From contig CAWDLW010000015.1 of assembly GCA_963803145.1 (NCBI GenBank), forward strand, positions 361,733-425,732: 64,000 nt of DNA, in the 5' to 3' direction. This stretch comes from Methanotrichaceae archaeon (GTDB lineage Archaea; Halobacteriota; Methanosarcinia; Methanotrichales; Methanotrichaceae). Below are positions 6,936 through 43,791 of this stretch, piece by piece. Position 1 is the stretch's first letter. Every line of letters starts with the position of its first letter. Under the pieces are notes generated by a model that was not told the origin of the DNA, did no database searches, and saw nothing but the letters and a program-made list of their open reading frames with translations. Both the position numbers and the translations under genes were made by a program.

Positions 6936-8147
6936 GTGGCTGCAATGGCTTATAAGGCATTTATCATTGGTATTAACACACTAGGCTTGAAATATTGTGA
7001 TAGAGATGCAGATCTGATGAAATATGCCCTCTCAAAACGCGGCTATAATGTAAATGTAATAAATAAAGAAGCGAAAAAGTATGATATCATGCCGAAATAT
7101 ATCGATATATTGGGAGATTGCCGAATAGTAGATACCTTAATTTTCTTTTTTTCAGGTCATGGCAAACCCATTGGGCGCGAACTTTTTTTATTTACCAAGG
7201 GAGATGGTTCGGACGAATTAAACAAGATTCCAATTAGTGAGATTTTGGGGCCTTTGGAACGGTGCGCCGCCAAAAACAAACTTGTAATCTTAGATTGTTG
7301 CCGGGCAGGAAGACTAAATGGTAGTGGTGAGTGGAATTGTCCTGAACCGGGGGATTTCTATCGCATTCTTGTTGCTGCGAATCCTCTAGAAAAGGCCAAA
7401 GAGATCGATGATTTGCGAGCAAGTTTTTTAACGCATAAAATTCATTCAGCACTTACAAATCCTCCCGAAGCTATCTTGGACAAAGGAAAAATTCGAATAA
7501 ACAACCTTTCTGATTGGCTACGTAAGCAGGCGGACTTACATAATGTGTCATCATTGATAAAAGTCCCCCGACCATATCTGATTGGAGCCGATAGGGCGGA
7601 TTTTGAGATCTGCATTCTTGAAAAGTCACTTATCGAGCCAATGGAAGGCAAAACCATAATCAATGATAGGCAATTGATTGATGAAATAAGAGAATGGAAA
7701 GTGATTCATACAAAATCGCAATCCCTTCAAGATCATCTAGCCGAAATGATTCGACATCTTCATATATCCCGATTTGAACCCTTTGGTTCAAAGGGTTTTA
7801 ATAATTCAATGCAAAGCGCGGAAAATGAATGGATACGATGCGCTTCTTATTTTAAAGAGATACTGGAGGATGTTAAGGGATTTCGCTACATTGCGGCGAA
7901 TGAGGCAGTTCTACAGTGTTTACCATACGCTACAGAACCATCTATTAAACCTATATTGGATCGGATTAGAATAGCAAAGAGCCCTGAAGACGCTTTAGAT
8001 ATCCAACGACTGATAGTCGATATTAAACAAGTTATAGATGAAATGCTTCATGTAGCTGATAAACAAATTGTCTTATTAGTTGATAAGCTAGCAATTAAAT
8101 CATCGTCCGAAACGATTGAGGCAAATCATGTCGTTACAGAAGCTTGA
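6936..8147 (+). CDS. Caspase-family (peptidase C14) protein with uncharacterised C-terminal helical domain
   Basis: AFIIGIN, FFFSGHG (catalytic His), VILDCCRAG (catalytic Cys). Confidence 0.9.
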   Translation: MAAMAYKAFIIGINTLGLKYCDRDADLMKYALSKRGYNVNVINKEAKKYDIMPKYIDILGDCRIVDTLIFFFSGHGKPIGRELFLFTKGDGSDELNKIPISEILGPLERCAAKNKLVILDCCRAGRLNGSGEWNCPEPGDFYRILVAANPLEKAKEIDDLRASFLTHKIHSALTNPPEAILDKGKIRINNLSDWLRKQADLHNVSSLIKVPRPYLIGADRADFEICILEKSLIEPMEGKTIINDRQLIDEIREWKVIHTKSQSLQDHLAEMIRHLHISRFEPFGSKGFNNSMQSAENEWIRCASYFKEILEDVKGFRYIAANEAVLQCLPYATEPSIKPILDRIRIAKSPEDALDIQRLIVDIKQVIDEMLHVADKQIVLLVDKLAIKSSSETIEANHVVTEA

Positions 8148-11100
8148 AAGTAATTATAGAAATTTTTTGAACTCATATAAATCTGAGAAACAGCTGGACA
8201 TCCTTGAAGCTAAGAATCTTCTTAATACTTTTCGACAATCTGGCGAATTTATCAGCAGCCCAGAGGAAAGAGAGATTTTATCTGTATGGTGCAGGACAAT
8301 TGCAGACATAATCTTTGAGAATACAGGGGAATATCTTCCTGTGAGAATCTTTCCTTTAGATAACATCACAATATCATCTGAACCTGCCTCGATCCCCCTC
8401 CCTCGCCAGATACCTCCACCGCCAGCTGACTTTAAAGGCCGTAAGGACGAAATCATAAATATCCTATTATGCTTCGATAAGGTAAGACCCATCATCGGTC
8501 TGCGTGGTATGGCTGGCGTTGGCAAGACTGCACTAGCACTTGTTTTGGCAGAGAGGCTAAAAGACCGTTTTCCTGATGGGAATCTCTTTCTAAACCTGCA
8601 AGGAACGACTAGTAATCCCCTTAGAGCAGCTGATGCTATGGCCCAAGTCATCCATTCGTATTACCCAACTAAACGCCTGCCAGAGAGAGAAGACGAGTTG
8701 CGTGGGCTATATCTCTCAGTTCTGTCTGACAAACGAGTACTGCTTTTATTAGACAATGCGAAGAATAGAGAGCAGGTTGAGCCGTTGTTGCCTCCTTCAA
8801 GCTGCGCCGTTTTAATCACCTCAAGAAATAAATTTTCTTTGCCAGGCTTAACGGCACGAGATCTGGATGTTTTGAGTTCTGCAGAAGCTCGTGAACTGCT
8901 CCTCGAAATCGCCGGACGGATTGGCGATCGATCTGACAATTTGGCAAATCTTTGCGGAAATCTTCCCCTGGCCCTTCGAAATGCTGCAAGCGTCTTGGCC
9001 GAGAGGGGAGACATAGATGTGGCTGATTACGAACGCTGCCTAAGTGACAAAAAGATGAGGCTAGATCTAGTATATGCTTCATTCAGTTTGACTTACGATC
9101 TTTTGTCTCCAGTGAAAAAGAAGCATTGGTGTCGTCTTTCGGTCTTTCCGCAAGACTTTGACCTAAAAGGTGGAACAGCAGTTTTGAAGATGGCTCTTGA
9201 ACCATCTGCTAAGGTATTGAGCGACTTAGTTAAATGTAGTCTCGTGGATTTTATTCGCCCCGTAGATTCCGGAGAGGGACGTTACAAGCTGCATGACTTG
9301 GCTCGCCTTTTCGCTGAATCACGCCTGGAATCCAAGGAGCGTGACGATGCTGAGCATTGCCATGCTAAGTATTACTTGATAATGCTCTCTTCTGCGGAAA
9401 CTCTCTACAATAAGGGCGGGGAAAATGTCATGGAAGGGCTGAAAATTCTCGATCGAGAATGGGCGAATGTGCAGGCCGGACAGGCATTTGCCGTAAAAAA
9501 TGCCAAAAAAAATGCGGATGCAGCTGCCCTCTGCATTGAATACGCTGATCCAGTGGGTATCCTTTCATTGCGATTGCATCCCAACGATCTAATTCACTGG
9601 CTTGAGGTTTCTTTGGATGCAGCTAAGCAATTAAAAAGATCAGCTCAAGAAGGCATCATTCTAACGAAGATAGGATATACCTACTTCCAACTGGGCAAGG
9701 TTCAAGAGGCAATCCATCTCCATGAGAAGGCACTGACTATAAGCCGCAAGATCGGTGCCAGACGAGGTGAAGGAACCGTTCTGGGAAACCTGGGACAGGC
9801 CTATGCTGCTCTGGGCGAGACACGGAAGGTCATCGAATATTCTGAACACGCGCTGGCCATCGACCGTGAAATCGGAAACAAAAAAGGGGAAGATATCCGC
9901 TTGGGCAATCTGGGCTGTGCTTATTATGATTTAGGCGAGATGCATAAGGCCATCGAGTACTACGAGCAGGCGCTGACCATCGACCACGAGATTGGAGACA
10001 GAAGGAGCGAAGGAAAGCATCTGGGCGATATGGGATTGGCTTATGCCAGTCTGGGAAAGACTCGCGAAGCCATCGAGTACTACAAGCAGGCCTTGAATAT
10101 TGCTTGCGAGCTCGGCGACCTAAGGACTAAAGGAAGACACATGGGCAATTTGGGCGGTGCTTATTACGATCTAGGCTATATTCGTAAAGCGATCGAGCAC
10201 TATGAGCAGGCGCTGGCCATCAGCCGCGAGATCGGGAACCCATGGATTGAAGGAGAAAATCTATGTAATTTAGGGAATGCCTATGCTGCCTTAGAGGATA
10301 CTAACAAGGCAATTATAGTTAATCCACGTAATTTTTACCTCATAGATACCCTTAAATAATTAATATACGATATAGCCGTTCATGGGCAGGAAACCTGTAA
10401 TTGTAAGACATATCTCGAAGGTAGAATTAGATCAATTGTATAAAGATGAGAGAAACATAAGAATTAAAGAACGGCTACTAGCGATAATACATTTATACGA
10501 AGGAAAGAATGTATATATAGTAGCTGATATTCTTAAACGAAGTGAAAAGACAATAAAGAATTGGCTAAGCGATTGGAACAAACAAGGATATGATGGATTG
10601 ATACCACAGAATAGAAACGGCAAAGAACCAATGATATCTTTTGATGAATGGGATAAAATTATCGAAGAGATTGAGGACAAAGGAATGACTATAAAAGAGG
10701 TAATAAAATATGCAAAAGACACAAGAGGCGTAGAATATTCGTATAAAGGTGGTTGGAAGATTTTAAGATCAATAAAGAAAGTCAAATATGGTAAACCATA
10801 TATTAGAAATAATAAGAGGCCTGTTAATGCAGAAAGTTTTCTAAAAAAAGGATAGATTCAGTAATAACAACAGTCAAAGAACCTATTATTGGATTCCTTG
10901 ATGAAAGCTCTTTGCAACAGCGACCTAATACACGCAGGGTTTTAAACACCCATATGCTAAATTATCAACCTGGAAAAGTTAGGTCTAGAACTGTTTTTGG
11001 GTTCATTGCATTGAATGGAAATGATGAAGTTATGGTCTCTCACTCATCCAAGAAAGAAGATTTAATGATCTTCGCCCAAAAATTGAGAAGTAACAATATT

Positions 11101-23949: not shown

Positions 23950-25032
23950 TAGTTAATCATTGAGCTTATTGCCCTATAGATACATTTAATAATTAATGCG
24001 TGAAAATACATAGGCATGGGTAGAAAACCTATAATAATTAGGCATATATCAAAGATAGACCTTGATAAATTATATAAAAAAGAGACTGATCTAAGGATTA
24101 AGGAACGGTTATTGGCAATAATACATTTATATGAAGGGAAAAACGTATATGAGGTAGCTGATATTTTAAAAAGGGGCGAGAGGACAATAAAATATTGGTT
24201 AAGCAGATGGAATAATCATGGCTATAATGGATTGACACCAAAGAATAGAAATGGCAAAAAGCCAAAGATGTCTCTTGATGAATGGGATAGAGTTATTAAA
24301 GAAATTGAAGACAAAGGAATGACGATAAAAGACGTATTAAAATATGTAAGGGATACAAGAGGTATAGATTTTTCATATAAATACGGCTGGCGAATTTTAA
24401 GAGTAGTGAAAAAAGTTAAGTATGGGAAACCATACATCAGAAATGAAAAGAGGCCTGCAGATGCAGAAAGTTTTTTAAAAAAGGATAAAATCAGTGCTGA
24501 CCACTGTTACTGATCCTGTTATAGGATTTCTTGATGAAAGCTCTTTACAACAGCGCCCTAATACACGTAGAGTCTTAAACACTCATTTAATAAATTATAA
24601 ACCTGGAAAGGTTAGATCAAGAACTATTTTTGGATTTATAGCATTAAATGGCAATGATGAGGTTATGGTTTCCAACTCCTCTAAGAAGGAAGCGTTGATG
24701 GCATTTGCTCAAAATATAAGAAATAATAATATTATGAGGCCAATTTGTATACTTTTAGATAATGCTAGAATTCATTTGGCCAAGAAATTTAGAAAACTAG
24801 CTGAGGAAATCGATATTCACTTAATTTATAATATCCCCTATTCACCAGATTTGAATCCTATAGAATTCGGTTGGAAGGATTTCAAAAGAGAGATCGCCAA
24901 ATACACTGATTTCGATGAAGCTATTATAGCTAGCCAAGATTGCGCTTTAGAAATATTTTATTCCAAAAAGGATGGATATTCAAAGTCCTGGGTGGAGCGA
25001 TTTCTTAGTGCAAAAAGCTAGGAGATTAACTA
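23950..25032 (+). mobile_element. IS630-family element (copy A2, near-identical to 5306-6388)
   Basis: Same ends, TA duplication, 1083 bp; proteins differ at a single residue (Q to H). Confidence 0.95.
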
Positions 25033-25086: not shown

Positions 25087-26403
25087 TTAGCGTGGTAGCG
25101 CTGTGACCTTGACCCAAGGAACGTACGCTACCCTATCGGCTGGCCCTCCATTTCGAAACCTCATATAATGTTGCCCATTAAATCCAAATATGCGTAAGAA
25201 CGTCATTTCCACGTACCATAAACCTAGCTCTTTCGCTTCGATTCGGGCATCAAATGATATTGCGCTTAATTTAATACGATCTTCTCCTGTTTCATGAGTA
25301 ATTCTATTTCGAATATATGTAAACATGTATGAACCCGATGGATATTTTTTAGCATCGGAATTAGTTTTCTGCAATTCGGTTAATGCTCTTTGCAGCTCTT
25401 TTAGCTCGCTGGGTATAGTTACAGGAATACCCATTGATGTTAGAAGATGCTCAATTTTCCTACTAGCAGGCCATTTATGGAACGCCTCTACTGTGCAAGG
25501 TTTAGAAGCGCCAGGTGCCTCCATGAGATATACCCAAGCAAGCAGTTCCAATGCAGCTTGTATTAAGATAATTGATCCTTCTACTCCGCCTGAGCCAATA
25601 TTTGCTTCGATGTACCAATGAATTGCAAGGCGTGTTGGTTCATTCCAATCCGGGTCAACCCATTTTTTCATGAAACCAATGAATGCCTCGTTAATCTTCT
25701 CGGGTTCAAAATCAAAGAACCAACTCCGAACGTCCTTCCATGGAGTTAATCTTGGTGCATCCCATACTTGCCAGCTAACCTTATCGCCATTTTGACCTAT
25801 TGGAAGTATTGGACCACACCATAAGCCCCTCACAAAAGAGAGAAAATGATATAGTGCAATTAGCTTATCAGATGCTTGATCCTTATCAAAATGTCCTTCA
25901 TCAATTCGTTTTAACATCCCTATATGTGTTAGGCCAAATCCACCTTGATCGCTGAGGTATTTGGTTAAATCGGTGATATTATCAATCGGGCTTAATATTA
26001 TGTTCCATTCATCGTTCTTTAGATTTAAGCGAATACCAGGAATACTTTTAAAGTTAGGGATATGGAACAGGACCTCATCGCATACTGATGTATTTATTAT
26101 GGTCGGTCTCCCCAACAGTTGCCCACGAATAATATAGCCACAAGATACCAAATCCACATAAGCATCACAAGATAACGGTAACTTAGCAATCTCCAGCTTA
26201 ACTTTGCCTGTATCTCCAAATATTCGATCAAGCATTTCGAATCTAATGCATGTCGAGGGTAGCCAGTTTAACTTGATAGACGCATGACCTGTAAAAACAT
26301 GTCCGGATTGTTCTAGCCGTATATCTCCATCATATAAGTTAATCAAAGCATTTGGTTCGGAAGTGGTGTATATGGTTTTCAAGGGTGGTTTATCATTTGC
26401 CAT
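25087..26403 (-). CDS. Hypothetical protein with C-terminal HEPN-like domain (ApeA-like architecture)
   Basis: Beta-rich N-terminus; helical C-terminus LAIHWYIEAN...QAALELL...YIRNRITH (RxxxxH). Confidence 0.7.
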   Translation of the reverse strand: MANDKPPLKTIYTTSEPNALINLYDGDIRLEQSGHVFTGHASIKLNWLPSTCIRFEMLDRIFGDTGKVKLEIAKLPLSCDAYVDLVSCGYIIRGQLLGRPTIINTSVCDEVLFHIPNFKSIPGIRLNLKNDEWNIILSPIDNITDLTKYLSDQGGFGLTHIGMLKRIDEGHFDKDQASDKLIALYHFLSFVRGLWCGPILPIGQNGDKVSWQVWDAPRLTPWKDVRSWFFDFEPEKINEAFIGFMKKWVDPDWNEPTRLAIHWYIEANIGSGGVEGSIILIQAALELLAWVYLMEAPGASKPCTVEAFHKWPASRKIEHLLTSMGIPVTIPSELKELQRALTELQKTNSDAKKYPSGSYMFTYIRNRITHETGEDRIKLSAISFDARIEAKELGLWYVEMTFLRIFGFNGQHYMRFRNGGPADRVAYVPWVKVTALPR

Positions 26404-26446
26404 TTAATTCCTCCCTTGGGAAATCATCTTCAAGTATTAAACGCTG

Positions 26447-27641
26447 GGTCGTGTACGAGTCTCATTGAACAGGAATCCTGAAGTCCAATAACTCTCGAAT
26501 AGTCCAAATGTGATCTGTTAGCCCTTCAGCCATAGCAGGTGTTCTCTGCATCCATCTTTTATTTTCTTGATTTATCTCCAGCCGAAGAGATTTATGAGGT
26601 TTGACAAAATTATACCAAGCTTGGAAGAAGTCCAAAGCATTAGAATGTCTCTTCAGAATTTTGCTGCAATTCATTGATTTGCGTACAAACCTTGCTAGGG
26701 AATTGCGAATCGTGAGATTAAGTCTCTCAATATAGGCAGTATTGATAGAACCGCCCGAATTTACACCAAGCAGCTCCATGACTTTCGCAGGATCGCCAAA
26801 AACTATGTCCTGAACCACTTCAATAACTCGTCCATTCTTCCTTTTCTTACAGACCCTGGCATACTTCAGGCTTGGGTAAGGAACCAATACAGGATACGGT
26901 TTTCTTCCTATTCCTGCATATTGCGGCGTTTCCAGGAAACCGTAGACACTGACCAATCCTTCCTCAAATGGGTCCCAGTTGTCAGATGTGAATACTGGAA
27001 TGGGAGAATCGATAGCTCGTCGTCTTTCCACATCCCTAAACAACTCGATTGCGTCCTCTGTGCTTCTTTCCCCCTCGAAATGGCTTATAAACAATCTGGT
27101 ATCGGTTTTAATTGCAGTTAGGGTATAGACATCTCCGTAGTCTTCAGGATCGTCTTCGGTGATATTCATTTGCTTTTTTTATATAAGACCAAATCTCATC
27201 TACCTGTATACGATCAAGATGAAGGTCCTGGAGAAAGTAATCCGTTACTTCCTCACAATGCTTACCGGCTAGATCAACCCATTTGCAGATAGTACTTCTA
27301 TCATGACCACTGGATCTTGCTATCCCGCGAATACTCCCTTTCTCTGGAATCTCGGCCAGAGTCCTGACAACCTCTTCCCATGGTGTGATCAATCCAAAAA
27401 ACGGCGTTCCTCGTTTCTCACTAAAACAATGCCCACAGGTTCTGCATTTGAGAAGCGCGATGTTGTTCTTTCCCTAGAATTCCTTCAGAACTATATTCCC
27501 TGCATCTTTCTTTCCGTAATCTGGGCAAGCTTCATGCCAGCACCAGAACTTTGACAGATCCCTTTCAGATCCCATTGCTACTCCCAAATTAGATTCTAGT
27601 GGAGTAGTATTAATATCTTTCAGTTAGTCTCGTACACGACC
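26447..27641 (-). mobile_element. IS1-family element, 8-bp TSD AAACGCTG; orfA has an in-frame TAG
   Basis: IRs GGTCGTGTACGAG; orfA starts at 27575 (MGSERDLSKFWC...) with TAG at 27474-27476; orfB 26462-27169. Confidence 0.93.
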
Positions 27642-27819
27642 AAACGCTGTATATATACTCCATTCCACTGTGATGTTGGTACTTGAAGTGGCAATCCTAG
27701 GCTACATGCTTTCAATGGTATCGGTTACTTGGGTTCAACTGCAATGTCGCTCCTTGGCAATGTCTGTATCGATACATATATAAATGTGTTAGAAATTAGA
27801 CCTTTAAACAAAAGGATGG

Positions 27820-28890
27820 ATGAATGCCTGGGTTGGGAGCATGACGAGCCTAATTACAGCGGGTACGAATAGTCTCCAAACGTTGCTTAATGCGCTTAGC
27901 GCACTGGAAACGATAGAGAATTTTAATTTCGACGAAATTTATTTATTTGATACCCCTGAAACTAGCTCAAAATCACAGGATATCCTAACGGGAATCCGGG
28001 CCACACCCAAACGCAGAAATCTACAGATAACATCTTTTGTGGTCAATGAAAATAATGCATATAAGCGCATTCCAGAGTTTATGGCGAGACATGTTCTAAA
28101 TGATACAAAGCGAATCCAAGAAGTGGTTGTCGATCTTACAACAGGTCCTAAATACATAACAAGTTTGCTTTACTCGGCAGCAAACTTTTGCCAAATTAGT
28201 AACATCTATTATTTCTTGCTAAAAGATAATGACAAGCGAAGTGTTCCATTTGATGCTCTTATCAAGCACAAAGACTACGAACATCTCCAACTTCCTCCCT
28301 TTTCCGGCAAAAGCCTTATGGCGTTAAGTTGGCGTAGTTCTCTAGATCTGATCTACTATCTCAAGGATATTGAAGTGCTCATAGAGGGATTCCCACCTGA
28401 GTCGAAAGAGTTAGCAAAGTCCGTCGATCGAACGATGCGCTCTGCTGTTAGATATTACTTTAATGAAGAGTATAAAGAAGTGCTCAGTAGCATTGGTTTA
28501 CTGCTCGAAGACTGGGTTGCACAGATATACGCAACTTGGGAAATCCAAGGCACACTTAAGGCACATATGCCCACTGATCAAAAAACTGACAGTAGGAAAC
28601 GGCCTAAAGGAAAATTGGGAGATATGAATTATGTTTTTGATGATTTACTTTATATAAAACAACCGGGCAAAACGGAAAGTTTCACTTCAGAGGAACTTCA
28701 AAGCTTTATTCCTTTAACGATGGTTGGAGATATGTTAAATATTGCTAGAAATTATCGTAATATAGTTGTTCACCCTCATTGCTACCAATATGATCGAAAT
28801 GATGCTAAAATAGCCCTAGATATTGGTTTTGCTTGCGTGAATAGATGCATGCAAGCAGGTTTACTACCTAAAATCAGGCCGATTCCATGA
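27820..28890 (+). CDS. CARF-domain protein with C-terminal HEPN RNase motif (Csm6/Csx1-like)
   Basis: N-terminal ITAGT, CARF motif VVDLTTGPKYITSLL...IYY, C-terminal YRNIVVH (RxxxxH); probable start 27841. Confidence 0.85.
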   Translation: MNAWVGSMTSLITAGTNSLQTLLNALSALETIENFNFDEIYLFDTPETSSKSQDILTGIRATPKRRNLQITSFVVNENNAYKRIPEFMARHVLNDTKRIQEVVVDLTTGPKYITSLLYSAANFCQISNIYYFLLKDNDKRSVPFDALIKHKDYEHLQLPPFSGKSLMALSWRSSLDLIYYLKDIEVLIEGFPPESKELAKSVDRTMRSAVRYYFNEEYKEVLSSIGLLLEDWVAQIYATWEIQGTLKAHMPTDQKTDSRKRPKGKLGDMNYVFDDLLYIKQPGKTESFTSEELQSFIPLTMVGDMLNIARNYRNIVVHPHCYQYDRNDAKIALDIGFACVNRCMQAGLLPKIRPIP

Positions 28891-29291
28891 CAATTTTTCT
28901 TGCACTCGACGGTGATAAAGTTGGCTCCAGGTTGGAAGCAATGATTGTGGCAGAAGATTTAGAACGAGTTGCTTCTTTCAGCCATTGTGTGGCCGAAGCA
29001 ATAAAGAAAATGACTGAATTGATCGAGCAAAACCATGGCGTAATAATCTTTGCTGGTGGTGATAACTTAATGGCAGAATTTGATGATGCGAAGAACGCTA
29101 ATTTAATAATAGATGAATTGGGTCGAGTATTACGAAACATTTTCTTTGAGGCTACTGGTTGTACTGCGTCAATTGGAATTGGCTATCGACCACGAGATAC
29201 GTTCATTGCTCTTAAGCTAGCAAAAGGCTCTGATAAAACTAAATTAGTACACCTCAATAGTATATTACATTCAACTATCTGCTACTTATAA
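28887..29291 (+). CDS. mCpol (minimal CRISPR polymerase) palm-domain nucleotide cyclase
   Basis: 134 aa; FLALDGDKVG, IFAGGDNL, TASIGIG, ALKLAK; ATGA overlap with the CARF gene. Confidence 0.88.
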   Translation: MTIFLALDGDKVGSRLEAMIVAEDLERVASFSHCVAEAIKKMTELIEQNHGVIIFAGGDNLMAEFDDAKNANLIIDELGRVLRNIFFEATGCTASIGIGYRPRDTFIALKLAKGSDKTKLVHLNSILHSTICYL

Positions 29292-29331
29292 ATGACACAT
29301 CGTAAGCTATAAAGCATTACATAGCATTGTT

Positions 29332-29548
29332 ATGAACTGGCATGACCGCATTATTGCCGACCCAAAAGTTCTGGCCGGAAAACCTGTTATCAAGGGCACC
29401 CGACTAGCGGTTGAGTTCATCCTCGACCTACTTGCAGGAGGATAGTCGGACACTAAGCTCTTGCAGAACTACCCAAGATTGACTCATGAAGATATTCAGG
29501 CATGCTTAAGTTACGCCGGCGCCCTGATAAAATCTTAAAAGGTCTTCC
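29332..29548 (+). pseudogene. DUF433 antitoxin pseudogene (two stops), followed by a few codons of a DUF5615-like toxin start
   Basis: MNWHDRIIADPKVLAGKPVIKGTRLAVEFILDLLAGG*; paralog of 30975-31193; followed by atgctgctgctggcggat. Confidence 0.85.
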
Positions 29549-29742
29549 CGATCAAGATTTTACGGGAAGAACTCTGATGCTGCTGCTGGCGGATGTAACT
29601 TGCCTTTAAAAAGCAAATCATCCACGACTCTGTCAAAACTTATATAAAATATCCTAACTATTCATTTATCTGAGATTCAATTGCTCAAGCCCTATTATGC
29701 AATATTGATATCCTAAGAGACCAATAATAATCTCAGATATTC

Positions 29743-30841: not shown

Positions 30842-30974
30842 TGATTTCCTTGGAATCTTGTCATTGTACCTGTGGATAGATCAAGCCACGGACGGTGAAG
30901 CTTTCCCGGCATACATCATCCTTTTGGCGCCTTCAGCACATGCATCTTAAAACATAAAGCGTTATGGTATTGTT

Positions 30975-31193
30975 ATGAACTGGCAAGAACGTATTATTGC
31001 TGACCCAAAGGTTCTGGCTGGAAAACCTGTTATCGATGGCACCCGCCTGGCGGTTGAGTTCATCCTTGATCTACTGGCTGGAGGATGGTCGGAAGCCGAG
31101 ATCTTGCAAAATTACCCCAGATTGACTCCTGAAGACCTCCGGGCATGCTTAAGTTACGCCAGTTCCCTGATAAAATCTGAAAAGGTCTTCTAG
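30975..31193 (+). CDS. DUF433 family antitoxin (orphan)
   Basis: DPKVLAGKPVIDGTRLAVEFIL...YPRLTPEDLRACL. Confidence 0.9.
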   Translation: MNWQERIIADPKVLAGKPVIDGTRLAVEFILDLLAGGWSEAEILQNYPRLTPEDLRACLSYASSLIKSEKVF

Positions 31194-36972: not shown

Positions 36973-37534
36973 ATGACATCCCCGAACCTAAGATCTGTAG
37001 TCAGCAACACCGGACCGCTGATCTCGGCTTTACAATCCGATTGCATGCATATCCTGCTACAGTTCTATGACCAAATCCATATCCCGGCTGAGGAGCTGCG
37101 TGAATATCAGAGGCATGGTGCGGGAATGGAGGTCCAGGCGCTTATGAATGCTGGCATCTTAGTAGTTCACAGGGATATAACCGCATTAGAGAACGAAGCC
37201 GCCAGAACCATTGCGCAAGAAATATCGTGCCACCATGCCACCAGAGATAAAGATCCATCTCACCATCTCCCTGAGTCGTTAGCTATAGTTCTGGTTCAAA
37301 GAAGCGAACTGGGTGCAGTTGAGCTGCTCATCGATGAATTGGCTGCAAGAGATGTTGCCCCGCAAGCGAGGAGTTCCCATAATAGGATTTCCCGGTATTC
37401 TGATTCGTGCCTGCAGGCAGGATATGATGGAACCGAAGGATGTTGAGAGTGCCCTGGAAGAATGCTCGAGTCAAGGAACTCACTACTCTCCCAAGCTTAT
37501 TAATGAGATATACCAGAAGCTGAAGAGGCCATAA
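36973..37534 (+). pseudogene. PIN-domain (DUF3368-like) protein with one frameshift
   Basis: VVSNTGPLI...LLIDELAARDVA continues as RKRGVPIIGFPGIL in another frame at a C4 run near 37358. Confidence 0.8.
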
Positions 37535-38206: not shown

Positions 38207-39389
38207 GTGCAGCATAACACAAGTTTTTTATCCTAGCAAGTCCTTATGATCGCTAATCATGTCGAGGAAAACAATATTCGTCGTAAAATTGACAGATGAG
38301 GGTCGGGAATATCTGAACCAGTTTATTCGCCATGGAAAGGCATCTGTAAGAAGCGTGACTCGAGCCAGGACACTGCTCATGGCAGACGAAGGTTACTCCA
38401 ATAAAGATATCGTAAAGATTCTAAAAATAACCAGACCTACGGTTAACAGTACAAGGAAAAGGTACTGCCGGGAAGGTTTGGACTCTGCAATAAACGATAA
38501 ACCAAGAAGCGGCGCACCTCCAAAGATAGATGGAAGGATTGAGACACAAGTTACCCTTCTTGCCTGTTCGAAACCACCGGAAGGCAAATCGACCTGGACT
38601 CTGAAGCTTTTAGCCGATAGGCTCGTGGAAATGGAGGTAATAGAATCCATATCTACCATGACCGTTCAGAGGATCTTAAAAAAAGCGAGACCAAGCCTTG
38701 GCAGAAGGTTAGATGGTGTATTGGCGAGATAGCAAGCGATTACATCATGCATATGGAAGATGTGCTGGATCAATATGAGCAACCCTATGATCCTAAGCAT
38801 CCTTTAATCTGCATGGATGAGATGCCATGCCAATTGATAGACAACGTTTTAGTTCCTATTCCTCCTAAACCTGGAAAATCACAAAAAGTCGATTTTGAAT
38901 ATCGCCGTAATGGTACATGCTGTGTTTTCATCGCCTTTGATCCACATGCTCGTTGGAGAACAATATCTGTTGAAGAACACCGGACGAAAATTGATTATGC
39001 CCATTTTATGAAAGGGCTTTCCCAGAAATATCCTGAGGCAGAATACCTTAAAGTTGTCCAGGATAACCTTAACACTCACTCATCTGGTTCATTTTATGAA
39101 GCATTCTCGCCTGAGGAGGCGTTCCAGCTTGCCAAGAAGTTTGAGTTCCATTTTACTCCAAAGAAGGGTAGCTGGCTTAACATGGCTGAGATTGAGTTCT
39201 CGGCTCTTTCAAGGCAATGCTTGAACCGACGAATTGGCGATATCAAAACTTTAGCCAAGGAAGCGAAAGCTTGGGAACAGGATCGGAACAGGGCTAAAGT
39301 AGCTATTCGATGGAAGTTCACCAAAGCCAATGCAAGAGAGAAGTTCTGTAGGCATTACCTTAAGATAAAGAATTAATGTTATGATGTAC
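38207..39389 (+). mobile_element. IS630-family element (second subtype)
   Basis: IRs GTGCAGCATAACA/TGTTATGATGTAC flanked by TA; orfA 38259-38732, orfB to 39376 (CMDE, QDNLNTH, SWLNMAEIE); A7G -1 site. Confidence 0.93.
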
Positions 39390-40473
39390 TAGAGTCTGCC
39401 AAGCCTCCACCTAAATCAAAATACTTTTTAAGAACATAATCTACAGAACGGACAATAAAAGAAACTGGTGGTCCGGGTGTGTAGTATACGCCACGCCGTT
39501 CTCTCAACTCAGGATCGTATGCATTAAGGAATCCTTCATAGAAATGAACTATCGGATCTTCCTGTTTAGTCTTTTTTCCAAAATCTGCTAGAACCCTCTT
39601 GATGTCGGTGTTTGCCAAAATTTGGACCACGTAGTCAACATAATTCACATAGGGCTCCTCATCAAGAGCGGTTCCTGTTATAGTCTCAAAGAGCTGACGC
39701 AGAAATGGATTTGTTTTAGGGATTTCTCTTGCTGCACCAAGCCTTTGGAAGGACTCATGGCCTTTGTGGTTACATCGTGCCGCAAAGAGTCCATAAACAA
39801 TGGTCTGGGCATACATGTCAGCAAATTCATCAGTCTTCTCAGCCCGATCCATATCTGGAATTAAAACGCTGGCGAAAGCTTTCCGCAGATTCCAAAGCTG
39901 GCTGGTGGCCTTTTCAATACGGAATGCTTCCACAATTACATCCCTAATCGCGTGAGCTAGATACGCCAGGCGTTGGGAGAGCTCATTAGCGGAGGTGATA
40001 GGTTCTACTGGTTGATTAAGAAAATTCTCTAGAAGAGTAACAACGCTCTCTAATCCATTCTTGTCTTGAATAATCTTTCCATCTTTGTTCAGCCTGGCTA
40101 AGCATGCCGTTTCAAGAGGCGAATTCTTCGAATACCAGCGAAATTCTAAATAATCGGTAAGTATAAGGTTATCTAAATTTTTGAGATAACGTTCCAGTTG
40201 TTCTGACTCCTCTGCTTCGTCTAGAGATTTTCCGATGTCTTTAGCCTCAATGTGTCCAATAATTAGATTATCTTTCTTAATAATGAAATCCGGCGCTCCA
40301 CAACTAACTCGCTTCGGCTCATTGATGGCTATAATATCAGACCTGAGCGACTCTATTAATCCTTTTAATGCGGCTCTATATGTGTGCTCAGTGGCGCTTC
40401 CAGTCTCAAACTCTCTCTTTATTTTCGCCAGATATGATTTTGCCAATTCAATGGTTGCCTTGGAAGCTACCAA
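39390..40473 (-). pseudogene. N-terminal part of a type IIG/ISP-like restriction-modification enzyme, truncated at IS630
   Basis: ATEHTYR, GAPDF...HIEAK (PD-D/ExK), YEGFLNAYDPELRERRGVYYTP; no SAM-binding motif on the far side of the IS. Confidence 0.85.
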
Positions 40474-43101: not shown

Positions 43102-43791
43102 TCAGCCTGTATATCCCAGCTCCTTGGCTTTGGCAAAGGCTGCATTAGCTTCTGTATTACGACCGAGAGCCTGAAGAGTAACACCTTTGCCATACCAGGC
43201 CTTCGCATACTGTGGATTAAGCTCGGTAGCCTTATCAAATGCCTGAATAGCTTCATCGTATTTGCCCTGATTACCGAGAGCAACGCCTTTGTTGTTCCAC
43301 GCTTCTACATATTGTGGATTAAACTCGATGGCCTTGTCGTAAGCCTGGAGGGCATCATCATACTTGCTCTGATGAAGAAGAGCTTCGCCTTTGTTGTTCC
43401 ATGCTTCTGCATAGCGTGGATTAAGCTCGATGGCCTTGTCGTAAGCCTGAATGGCTTCATCGTATTTGCCCTGATGATAGAGCGCAAGGCCTTTGTTATA
43501 CCATGCATCTTCATAGTTTGGACTCAGCTGGATAGCTTTATCACAAGCCTGGATGGCTTCATCGTACTTACCCTGATCATCGAGCGCAACGCCTTTGTTA
43601 CTCCAGGGATCTGGAAAGCTTGGATTAATCTCTATAGCCTTCTCATAAGCCTGAATGGCTTCATCATACTTACCTTGGCCATATAGAACATTGCCTTTAG
43701 TTAGCCAATCCTCAGCTGTCTGCTGCCCAGAAGCTGATAATAAAATTATCATGATTATCAGATATAATATGATTATTGCCTTTGCTTTCAC
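43102..43791 (-). CDS. Secreted/anchored TPR protein
   Basis: Signal peptide followed by 34-aa repeats WNNKGxALxxQGKYDEAIQAYDKAIE (102-bp DNA repeats). Confidence 0.92.
   Translation of the reverse strand: MKAKAIIILYLIIMIILLSASGQQTAEDWLTKGNVLYGQGKYDEAIQAYEKAIEINPSFPDPWSNKGVALDDQGKYDEAIQACDKAIQLSPNYEDAWYNKGLALYHQGKYDEAIQAYDKAIELNPRYAEAWNNKGEALLHQSKYDDALQAYDKAIEFNPQYVEAWNNKGVALGNQGKYDEAIQAFDKATELNPQYAKAWYGKGVTLQALGRNTEANAAFAKAKELGYTG

What the first reader, a model, noticed from the sequence alone, without database searches (positions are those of the whole stretch)
27820..29291. CRISPR-independent CARF-HEPN + mCpol second-messenger system in an archaeon
Seen: an ATGA-coupled pair, a CARF (DLTTGPK) + HEPN (RNIVVH) effector and a 134-aa palm domain with DGD and GGD motifs; no cas genes or array in the window. 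Known: mCpol is a minimal Cas10/GGDEF-related cyclase that was computationally linked to CARF effectors; in the Panoptes defence system it constitutively makes a nucleotide that keeps a membrane effector off until phage sponge proteins deplete it; in type III CRISPR, CARF-HEPN RNases are activated by cyclic oligoadenylates. Inference: this RNase variant is either activated by the signal or has inverted, guard-type logic. I know of no characterisation in archaea.
Basis: partly seen in the sequence, partly recalled or inferred. Interest (0 to 1): 0.85.

Follow-up and report, generated by a model that had tools for sequence, protein, structure and literature searches.

The report
Archaeal mCpol plus CARF-HEPN RNase pair
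A methane-metabolising archaeon carries a small mobile two-gene unit, a nucleotide-sensing RNA-cutting enzyme coupled to a miniature signal-making enzyme, of a kind that has been catalogued by computer but never tested, so whether the signal switches the enzyme on or holds it off is still open.

Summary
ORF A (27820-28890, 356 aa) and ORF B (28887-29291, 134 aa) overlap by ATGA.

ORF B is a clear mCpol: Pfam PF18182 E 1e-24, 87.6 bits against a cut-off of 26.4. Both catalytic Asp align to solved Panoptes mCpols.

ORF A has a CARF fold (Z 15.0). Its helical C-terminal domain carries an R-N-x3-H motif whose Arg and His are invariant in 38 relatives, and it matches the HEPN family DUF4145 profile-to-profile (93.9%).

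The host is an archaeon with McrA on the same contig. Its genome shows no Cas10, RAMP or CBASS cyclase.

The pair has low GC, sits beside an IS element, and is absent from both genomes of the same genus. The effector is followed by mCpol in all five assessable places.

This is not a new kind. Relatives match, in the same order, the catalogued fused CARF_HEPN_mCpol model (22 of 38). A 2025 paper already notes mCpol-HEPN operons and calls the sign of regulation unknown.

My best reading is a Panoptes-like guard in which a constitutive signal holds the RNase off (about 0.45). An RNase switched on by the signal is the main rival (about 0.3).

The parts
27776..27785 (+). AT-rich ATATATAAAT element 35-44 nt upstream of the first ATG; a possible archaeal TATA-like promoter element
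   Evidence: Seen by eye in the sequence. Untested. The sigma-70 and terminator scan was uninformative: 7 promoter-like sites against 6.4 expected, and 0 terminators.
27820..28890 (+). ORF A, 356 aa: soluble CARF-HEPN effector, Csm6/Csx1-like in architecture. An alternative start is at 27841.
   Evidence: AF2 model with pLDDT 79.4 and pTM 0.76. Top Foldseek PDB hits are Csm6 chains (6tug_A, E 6.4e-6). No transmembrane segment: maximum Kyte-Doolittle 19-residue mean is 1.26.
27835..28305 (+). CARF domain (residues about 6-162), with G15-T16 and D105-L-T-T-G109-P-K111 motifs
   Evidence: VIA-align Z 15.0, rmsd 2.8 A over 135 residues to 9jxx_C. Z 14.9 to ring nuclease 7pq3, and Z 14.5 to the Cad1 CARF domain. 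PADLOC CARF_m1, E 7.5e-8. D105 and G109 are invariant and K111 is at least 90% conserved in 38 relatives.
28327..28869 (+). Helical C-terminal domain (residues about 170-350), HEPN-like
   Evidence: hhalign against 28 archaeal DUF4145 sequences: 93.9% probability, E 1.6e-7 over 43 columns. The CARF-half control gave 0.25%. 24 of 61 family members hit Pfam DUF4145. Csm6 chains align across both domains (8pe3_A 281 residues, 6tug_F 291).
28756..28773 (+). Codons for R313-N-I-V-V-H318, the Rx4H catalytic motif of HEPN
   Evidence: R313 and H318 are invariant and N314 is at least 90% conserved in the 38-sequence alignment. In the 61-sequence alignment R is invariant and N and H are at least 90% conserved.
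28887..29291 (+). ORF B, 134 aa: stand-alone minimal CRISPR polymerase (mCpol), translationally coupled to ORF A by the ATGA overlap
   Evidence: Pfam PF18182, E 1e-24 and 87.6 bits. Cas10 palm2, E 3.3e-11. NCBIfam NF033576, 62.4 bits. PDB 9nwn_B, E 2.6e-10, and OptS 9mnr_A, E 3.4e-10.
28908..28910 (+). Codon for D8, which aligns with Asp6 of the solved mCpols
   Evidence: Alignment. Asp6 and Asp57 are named as the putative active site of KpOptS in PMC12657218. Invariant in 8 mCpols.
29055..29063 (+). Codons for G57-G58-D59 (GGDN). D59 aligns with Asp57 of the solved mCpols.
26435..27653 (-). Context: flanking IS element with IS1-like DDE ORFs, bounded by 35-nt inverted repeats. It ends 167 nt before ORF A.
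   Evidence: Inverted repeat 26435-26469 / 27619-27653. Pfam DDE_Tnp_IS1.
29321..29547 (+). Context: interrupted copy of a DUF433 gene, 85% identical to 30964-31190. Synteny with a genome of the same genus resumes here.

Best explanation
This is a self-contained, horizontally acquired two-gene nucleotide-signalling module.

Proposed mechanism: ORF B (mCpol) dimerises and makes a cyclic oligoadenylate-type nucleotide from ATP, without any infection sensor. The CARF domain of ORF A binds that nucleotide. While the ligand is bound, the HEPN RNase domain stays off. When a virus brings in an enzyme that degrades the signal (a ring nuclease or Acb1-like phosphodiesterase) or a sponge protein that soaks it up, the CARF domain empties. 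The RNase then cuts cellular and viral RNA and arrests the infected cell.

In short, I read it as a soluble-RNase counterpart of the Panoptes guard, and a split two-gene form of the catalogued fused CARF-HEPN-mCpol protein.

Shown here: the domain identities, intact catalytic motifs, tight coupling, conserved pairing, mobility, and absence of type III CRISPR and CBASS from this genome.

Inferred: that a nucleotide is made, that CARF binds it, that the HEPN domain is an RNase, and above all that the ligand inhibits rather than activates.
For: Identity:
- mCpol scores 87.6 bits against a cut-off of 26.4.
- D8 and D59 align with Asp6 and Asp57 of solved OptS/mCpol, and S32 aligns with the ATP-selecting Ser30. 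All are invariant in 8 mCpols.
- CARF fold: Z 15.0.
- HEPN: R313 and H318 invariant, and hhalign 93.9% against 0.25% for the control.

A unit of two genes:
- The effector is followed at once by mCpol in the window and in L010, L011, L012 and G247. That is 5 of 5 assessable places and 4 distinct sequence pairs, in different surroundings. One pair is only distantly related (E 3.3e-19).
- Relatives match the fused CARF_HEPN_mCpol model in the same N-to-C order (22 of 38). ORF B matches that model's C-terminal mCpol part, positions 352-466 of 471.

For inhibitory logic (inference):
- Neither protein has room for an infection sensor: one is 134 aa of palm domain only, the other is CARF plus HEPN only. 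A guard needs no separate sensor.
- Both experimentally studied mCpol systems synthesise constitutively and hold their effector off. One of them uses a CARF domain (PMC12657230 and PMC12657218 passages, PMC13577387 abstract, introduction and discussion).
- The ATGA coupling, with the effector gene first, ties mCpol synthesis to effector synthesis.
Against: - Every characterised CARF-HEPN RNase known to me (Csm6, Csx1) is switched on by its ligand. This is recalled knowledge, though the solved structures that top my fold search are ligand-bound Csm6.
- The genome has no Cas10, RAMP or SMODS cyclase that a guard could protect. Published Panoptes systems co-occur with CBASS in 53% of cases.
- Two members of the wider family are fused to TIR and carry no mCpol. 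They look like ordinary signal-activated effectors.
- Gene order here is effector then mCpol. It is the reverse in the one Panoptes-like operon I opened, on a Nostoc plasmid.
- Asn34, the second ATP-selecting residue of E. coli mCpol, is Ala here.
- No product, binding or RNase activity was or could be measured.
Confidence: 0.45

Rival explanations
1. Activation logic, as in type III CRISPR. mCpol is silent or slow in uninfected cells. Some infection cue switches it on: a viral protein, a change in the nucleotide pool, or release from a complex with ORF A. Its product then activates the CARF-HEPN RNase.
For: The architecture and fold are those of Csm6, whose solved ligand-bound forms are the best whole-chain matches. 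The family includes TIR-CARF-HEPN fusions without mCpol. The fused CARF-HEPN-mCpol form shows that the parts can work in physical contact, which would allow the cyclase to be gated. The 2025 paper states that the sign is unknown for the HEPN-linked mCpols.
Against: No sensor domain or third conserved gene is present in any of the 5 contexts. Both mCpols studied so far are constitutively active, for a structural reason given in the paper: an ordered turn replaces the regulatory loop L1 of Cas10 (PMC12657230 passages).
Confidence: 0.3
2. A toxin-antitoxin-like addiction module. Its main role is to stabilise the mobile DNA that carries it, with the RNase as toxin and the enzymatically made nucleotide as antitoxin. 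It would have little or no antiviral role.
For: The pair sits between IS elements at a synteny break. It has GC 39.5% and 38.0% against 47.4 +/- 4.7% for long ORFs, and it is absent from both genomes of the same genus. Relatives are also flanked by transposases. Panoptes is itself described as toxin-antitoxin-like (PMC12657230 passage). TA genes (HicB, DUF433) lie next to it.
Against: It is biochemically the same as the guard model, so sequence cannot separate the two. Other defence-type genes lie in the same window: a caspase with an NB-ARC/TPR protein, a type IIG restriction-modification fragment, and PDC-S70.
Confidence: 0.12
3. An inactive relic, or a non-defence housekeeping signalling pair.
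For: The host has no other cyclic-oligonucleotide system. An effector-less mCpol is conserved in the core genome of another genus of the same class, so mCpol need not always mean defence.
Against: Both frames are intact and all catalytic and ligand-site motifs are kept across relatives at 41-80% identity. The patchy distribution, 2 real carriers among 392 genomes of the class, is that of accessory mobile genes.
Confidence: 0.06

Closest known systems
Fused CARF-HEPN-mCpol proteins (PADLOC-DB model PDLC01967 'CARF_HEPN_mCpol'). PMC13577387, citing the 2020 CARF census, describes these as mCpol fused to a Csx1-family ribonuclease.
   Same: The three domains are the same and in the same N-to-C order. 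ORF B matches the model's mCpol part (positions 352-466 of 471, E 1.1e-16). 22 of 38 relatives of ORF A match its CARF-HEPN part collinearly from about position 1 up to position 284, with best E 7e-11. These include P0014, which is 39% identical to ORF A.
   Different: Here there are two separate genes joined only by an ATGA overlap. ORF A itself does not reach E <= 1 on that model. As far as my searches show, the fused form has not been tested experimentally either.
Type II Panoptes (mCpol + CARF-TM; cA3 keeps the effector off), PMC13577387
   Same: A stand-alone mCpol is paired with a CARF-domain effector in a two-gene operon with no CRISPR machinery. The proposed logic is the same.
   Different: The effector here is soluble and ends in a HEPN RNase domain instead of transmembrane helices. 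The gene order is reversed relative to the Nostoc plasmid example. The host is archaeal, and the product and sign of regulation are unknown.
Type I Panoptes (OptS/mCpol + OptE/2TM-beta; 2',3'-c-di-AMP), PMC12657218 and PMC12657230; structures 9mnr and 9nwn
   Same: ORF B aligns over its whole palm domain with both solved mCpols (E about 3e-10), and both active-site Asp are conserved.
   Different: The effector has no beta-barrel sensor and is not in the membrane. The motif is GGDN here against AADG in the solved enzymes. The genome has no CBASS.
Csm6/Csx1 ancillary RNases of type III CRISPR-Cas
   Same: A CARF domain plus a helical domain carrying R-N-x3-H. Csm6 chains are the best whole-chain structural matches.
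   Different: The genome has no Cas10 or Csm/Cmr. The signal source is a 134-aa mCpol encoded in the same operon. A profile search found no PDB chain by sequence below E 0.025, and the two chains listed are unrelated proteins.

Membership tests
mCpol (Pfam PF18182 / NCBIfam NF033576) | Scores above the curated cut-off of the family model | tested here: met
   87.6 bits against 26.4; 62.4 bits against 40
mCpol (Pfam PF18182 / NCBIfam NF033576) | A single minimal palm domain with no other Cas10 domains | tested here: met
   134 aa in all. The match covers residues 4-121, that is profile positions 1-112 of 114.
mCpol (Pfam PF18182 / NCBIfam NF033576) | Catalytic Asp pair (Asp6/Asp57 of KpOptS) | tested here: met
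   D8 and D59 align with them (residues named in PMC12657218). Invariant in 8 sequences.
mCpol (Pfam PF18182 / NCBIfam NF033576) | Synthesises cyclic oligonucleotides | not testable with these tools
   Needs enzyme assays
CARF superfamily | Rossmann-like CARF fold | tested here: met
   Z 15.0, rmsd 2.8 A, 135 residues to 9jxx_C. Further CARF chains, listed down to Z 11.6 at rank 50, span model residues 6-162. By sequence alone the match is below the Pfam cut-off (19.1 against 24.6 bits). PADLOC CARF_m1, E 7.5e-8.
CARF superfamily | Binds a cyclic oligoadenylate | not testable with these tools
   Conserved G15-T16 and D105-x-T-x-G109 loops are consistent with this, but binding was not measured.
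HEPN superfamily | Rx4-6H motif | tested here: met
   R313-N-I-V-V-H318. R and H are invariant in 38 relatives.
HEPN superfamily | Homology of the helical domain to an accepted HEPN family | tested here: met
   hhalign to DUF4145: 93.9%, E 1.6e-7, but over only 43 columns around the motif. The control gave 0.25%. 24 of 61 members hit DUF4145, best E 1.7e-5. DUF4145 is placed in the HEPN superfamily by PMC3710099 (passages). ORF A's own Pfam hit is weak (E 0.15).
HEPN superfamily | HEPN fold of the domain taken alone | tested here: inconclusive
   Only whole-chain Csm6 alignments are available. The domain-only prediction was not possible.
Panoptes (types I and II) | Stand-alone mCpol in a two-gene operon with a nucleotide-binding effector | tested here: met
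Panoptes (types I and II) | Membrane effector (2TM-beta or CARF-TM) | tested here: not met
   No hydrophobic segment (maximum Kyte-Doolittle 19-residue mean 1.26). The C-terminal domain is HEPN-like.
Panoptes (types I and II) | Constitutive signal that inhibits the effector; activation when the signal is depleted | not testable with these tools
   This is the central open point
Type III CRISPR-Cas ancillary module | Cas10 and Csm/Cmr RAMP subunits in the genome | tested here: not met
   The Cas10 palm model matches only ORF B. There were 0 RAMP matches, and the controls did respond. Genome 99.3% complete.
Fused CARF_HEPN_mCpol (PADLOC PDLC01967) | All three domains in one polypeptide | tested here: not met
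   Two ORFs with a stop codon between them. No fused close relative was found, which is weak evidence. None of the 119 profile hits I examined for extra length is an mCpol fusion: P0024 and P0067 are TIR fusions, and P0083 (420 aa) had no Pfam hit at E <= 0.01.
Fused CARF_HEPN_mCpol (PADLOC PDLC01967) | Sequence match to the model | tested here: inconclusive
   ORF B matches (59.2 bits). ORF A does not at E <= 1. 22 of 38 relatives of ORF A do.

The most novel reading that the evidence does not exclude
This would be a third, soluble-RNase type of Panoptes-like guard, and the first in archaea. A constitutively made cyclic oligoadenylate would hold a Csm6-like RNase off, and viral ring nucleases or sponges would set it free. 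[quoted passage not shown] If so, CARF-HEPN allostery can run in the inverse direction.
Probability: 0.4. Interest if true: 0.75.

Novelty: new member of a known kind. Interest (0 to 1): 0.42.

Why it matters
The 2025 Panoptes paper asks outright whether mCpol nucleotides are negative or positive regulators of the HEPN-linked effectors. My five literature searches found no experiment on any such pair.

This locus is a compact, intact candidate for that test: 1.5 kb, two genes and a soluble effector. It comes from an archaeon whose genome has no other cyclic-oligonucleotide pathway to confuse the result.

Its close family is rare. There are 6 relatives among 5.8 billion clusters and 119 representatives among 1.84 billion, all unnamed or 'hypothetical'.

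If the RNase is held off by its ligand, that would show that CARF-to-HEPN coupling can be inverted. It would also extend guard-type immunity to archaea and their viruses.

If it is ligand-activated, the open question becomes how a 134-aa cyclase senses infection.

Tried and rejected
Tools not available:
- ORF A with ORF B complex prediction.
- Protein Atlas look-up of the neighbouring 438-aa ORF.
- Fold search in the 'viral' library. I tried 'pdb_via_wide' after more than twenty other calls, as the message allowed, and it was also not accepted.

Searches that found nothing useful:
- Sequencing runs: none was listed.
- Viral contigs with the 38-sequence alignment: 34 pattern matches, none a relative.
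- Plasmids with ORF A: no match.
- Longer (fused) relatives of ORF B: 259 candidates, none at E <= 0.001, which is weak evidence.
- Genome-contig scan with ORF A: only a 31-residue match in a Paracoccaceae MAG, which I treat as chance.
- PDB sequence search with the family profile: only two unrelated chains, E 0.025 and 0.91.
- Earlier notes of this scan: nothing on this place, and the word search gave no note that bears on it.

Papers I could not read: Burroughs 2015 and Makarova 2020 are not held. What I say of them comes from passages of citing papers. Their text and supplementary tables, and Supplementary Table 3 of PMC12657218 (which I did not open), may already list this family or this genome.

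Readings rejected:
- A type III CRISPR remnant. There is no Cas10 or RAMP anywhere in the genome.
- 'GTP cyclohydrolase III', the name one source gives to relative P0011. The GCH_III hit is below cut-off, 17.5 against 21.3 bits, while mCpol scores 87.6.
- The NCBIfam rows below cut-off for ORF A (E 0.012 and 0.19) are chance-level.
Full report
**What is there.** ORF A (27820..28890, +, 356 aa) and ORF B (28887..29291, +, 134 aa) are intact.

**ORF B is an mCpol.**
- It scores E 1e-24 and 87.6 bits on Pfam PF18182 (cut-off 26.4), E 3.3e-11 on the second Cas10 palm domain, and 62.4 bits on NCBIfam NF033576 (cut-off 40).
- It aligns over the whole domain with the two solved Panoptes enzymes, 9nwn_B (E 2.6e-10) and OptS 9mnr_A (E 3.4e-10).
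- In that alignment D8 and D59 fall on Asp6 and Asp57, which PMC12657218 names as the putative active site of KpOptS (passage). S32 falls on Ser30, one of two residues that PMC12657230 says select ATP. The other, Asn34, is Ala here (passages).
- D8, G9, D10, S32, G58 and D59 are invariant in eight mCpols of this clade, including one at 29% identity.

**ORF A is CARF plus HEPN.**
- *Sequence evidence for CARF is weak.* Card1 CARF scores E 0.0014, below cut-off, and PADLOC CARF_m1 scores E 7.5e-8.
- *The fold is clear.* The AlphaFold2 model was built on only seven sequences (pLDDT 79.4, pTM 0.76). Its residues 6-162 superpose on solved CARF domains at Z 15.0, rmsd 2.8 A, over 135 residues (9jxx_C). 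Further CARF chains follow, listed down to Z 11.6 at rank 50. The best whole-chain Foldseek matches are Csm6 proteins (6tug_A, E 6.4e-6). Only Csm6 chains align across both halves (8pe3_A 281 residues, 6tug_F 291, 5fsh_B 247).
- *The C-terminal half is helical.* R313 and H318 are invariant and N314 is at least 90% conserved in 38 relatives down to about 20% identity. The same holds in a 61-sequence alignment.
- *Family hits.* 24 of 61 members hit Pfam DUF4145 at E <= 0.1, with best E 1.7e-5. PMC3710099 places DUF4145 in the HEPN superfamily (passages).
- *My own profile-profile test.* I compared the C-terminal domain with 28 archaeal DUF4145 sequences fetched. It gave 93.9% probability and E 1.6e-7 over 43 columns centred on the motif. 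The CARF half as a control gave 0.25%.
- *Limits.* I could not fold the domain alone. The model is weakest at residues 251-270.
- *Solubility.* ORF A has no transmembrane segment.

**Host and genome.**
- The genome (4.13 Mb, 51 contigs, 99.3% complete, 6.8% contamination) has two full-length archaeal SSU rRNA genes. McrA lies on the window's own contig. The window also holds formate-dehydrogenase, F420-type and FmdE genes.
- ORF B is the only match to the mCpol model and to the Cas10 palm model. There is no RAMP match, and the controls did respond. Two Cas1 loci lie on other contigs.
- There is no SMODS cyclase and no Csa3-type CARF. SAVED gave nothing, but its control was silent too. Five TIR proteins exist.
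- The window has no cas gene or array.

**Mobility.**
- The pair starts 167 nt after an IS element bounded by 35-nt inverted repeats (26435-27653). Another IS, 24016-25021, has 25 copies of at least 800 nt in the genome.
- GC is 39.5% (ORF A) and 38.0% (ORF B), against 47.4 +/- 4.7% for 1342 long ORFs. GC3 is 35.6% and 30.4%, against 49.8 +/- 8.1%. That puts them at the 3rd-7th percentiles.
- A 19-kb DNA query found no match to window 27221-29606 in either genome of the same genus. The downstream genes (hydrolase, HicB/DUF433, MutL) are syntenic in one of them, and synteny stops at the DUF433 copy at about 29400.

**Distribution.**
- ORF A has 6 relatives (41-50% identity) in the 5.8-billion-cluster database. 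A profile finds 119 representatives at E <= 0.001, of which 88 are at <= 1e-10 and 9 at <= 1e-30, among 1.84 billion.
- Those I looked up are unnamed or 'hypothetical'. One comes from a Promethearchaeota MAG.
- In the class, 3 of 392 genomes match at E <= 0.001: G000, G247, and a weak hit in G209. None of the 2 genomes of the same genus and none of the 104 of the same family match.
- In a phylum sample, 13 of 401 match at E <= 0.001, but only G000 and G247 match over the whole length. The other eleven are partial, with E 2.7e-8 or worse.

**The pair is a unit.**
- Of 5 metagenome loci returned, 4 are true relatives and 3 have DNA downstream. In all 3 an mCpol gene follows within 0-2 nt or with a 1-nt overlap. 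L011 and L012 encode identical proteins.
- In G247, an archaeon of another family, a distant relative (E 3.3e-19, with motif RNDNSH) is likewise followed by an mCpol.
- That makes 5 of 5 assessable places and 4 distinct pairs, in different surroundings. The metagenome examples also sit next to transposases.
- mCpol is the more conserved partner: 59-80% identity against 41-50% for the effector.

**Relation to what is known.**
- ORF B matches positions 352-466 of the 471-position PADLOC model CARF_HEPN_mCpol.
- ORF A itself does not reach that model. However, 22 of 38 of its relatives do, collinearly from position 1 up to 284 (best E 7e-11). These include P0014, at 39% identity to ORF A.
- So the pair is best described as a split form of that fused architecture, in the same order.
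- PMC12657218 (passages) says mCpol systems occur in both prokaryotic superkingdoms. It says they are 'less frequently' coupled in operons or fused to HEPN RNases, and that it 'remains to be seen' whether the nucleotides act negatively or positively there.
- Five full-text searches found no experiment on an mCpol-HEPN system.
- Burroughs 2015 and Makarova 2020 were not available to me.

**Mechanism.**
- That a nucleotide made by ORF B is read by the CARF domain and controls the RNase is a strong inference from the domains and their conserved coupling. I put it at about 0.85.
- The sign of regulation is not shown. I favour inhibition (guard logic) for three reasons:
  1. Neither protein has any room for an infection sensor, and no third gene is conserved.
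  2. Both studied mCpol systems are constitutive, one of them with a CARF effector held off by cA3.
  3. The coupling guarantees that the cyclase is made with the effector.
- Four points count against inhibition:
  1. Known CARF-HEPN RNases are ligand-activated (recalled).
  2. This genome has nothing obvious to guard.
  3. TIR-CARF-HEPN members of the family lack mCpol.
  4. Gene order is reversed relative to a Panoptes-like operon on a Nostoc plasmid.
- I give the guard reading 0.45, activation 0.30, pure addiction module 0.12 and relic or other 0.06. The remainder is unassigned.

**Verdict.** The finding is real and correctly read. It is a new, archaeal, split member of a computationally known but experimentally untested kind. 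The interest lies in the open question it could answer, not in its architecture.

Noticed in passing
window 25087-26403 (-): A 438-aa ORF lies between two IS elements, just upstream of the pair. It has no Pfam or PADLOC match. It carries an R-N-R-I-T-H (Rx4H) stretch near its C-terminus, so it may be another HEPN-type protein.
   Followed up: partly
window 6936-10359 (+): A caspase-domain protein (Peptidase_C14) is followed by an NB-ARC plus TPR protein, with IS copies on both sides. It resembles the caspase-and-TPR conflict systems named in a figure legend of PMC12657218.
   Followed up: no
window 36973-37446 (+) and 39379-40473 (-): A PDC-S70 candidate defence protein. Also a 364-aa fragment matching only the first 338 of 1096 positions of a type IIG restriction-methylase model (E 8e-90). 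It abuts an IS at 38259-39376, so it is probably truncated by that insertion.
   Followed up: no
window 29321-29547 and 30964-31190: Two copies of a DUF433 gene at 85% identity. The first is interrupted by a stop. Synteny with a genome of the same genus begins at this copy.
   Followed up: partly
L018-L025 (genomes G205-G215, another genus of the same class): A stand-alone mCpol of 150-170 aa scores 111-137 bits and carries SAGDC in place of GGDD. The copy in L025 is broken by a stop. It has no adjacent effector and sits next to a conserved 448-aa neighbour in 7 of the 7 loci compared. A 358-aa neighbour is on the other side in 6 of them. This looks like a core-genome, non-mobile mCpol.
   Followed up: partly
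proteins P0024 (470 aa) and P0067 (497 aa): Members of the same CARF-HEPN family carry an N-terminal TIR domain (TIR_2, E 1e-27 and 2e-25) and no mCpol.
   Followed up: no
G288:C56:38093-38437 and G289:C4:121279-121575: Both genomes of the same genus have a 639-680-aa open frame that matches the mCpol model weakly (about 32 bits). These are probably Cas10 of a type III system. The window's own genome has no such frame.
   Followed up: no
window 43205-43671: A tandem repeat with a 102-nt period, 4.6 copies at 78% identity, lies inside overlapping ORFs that have no Pfam match.
   Followed up: no
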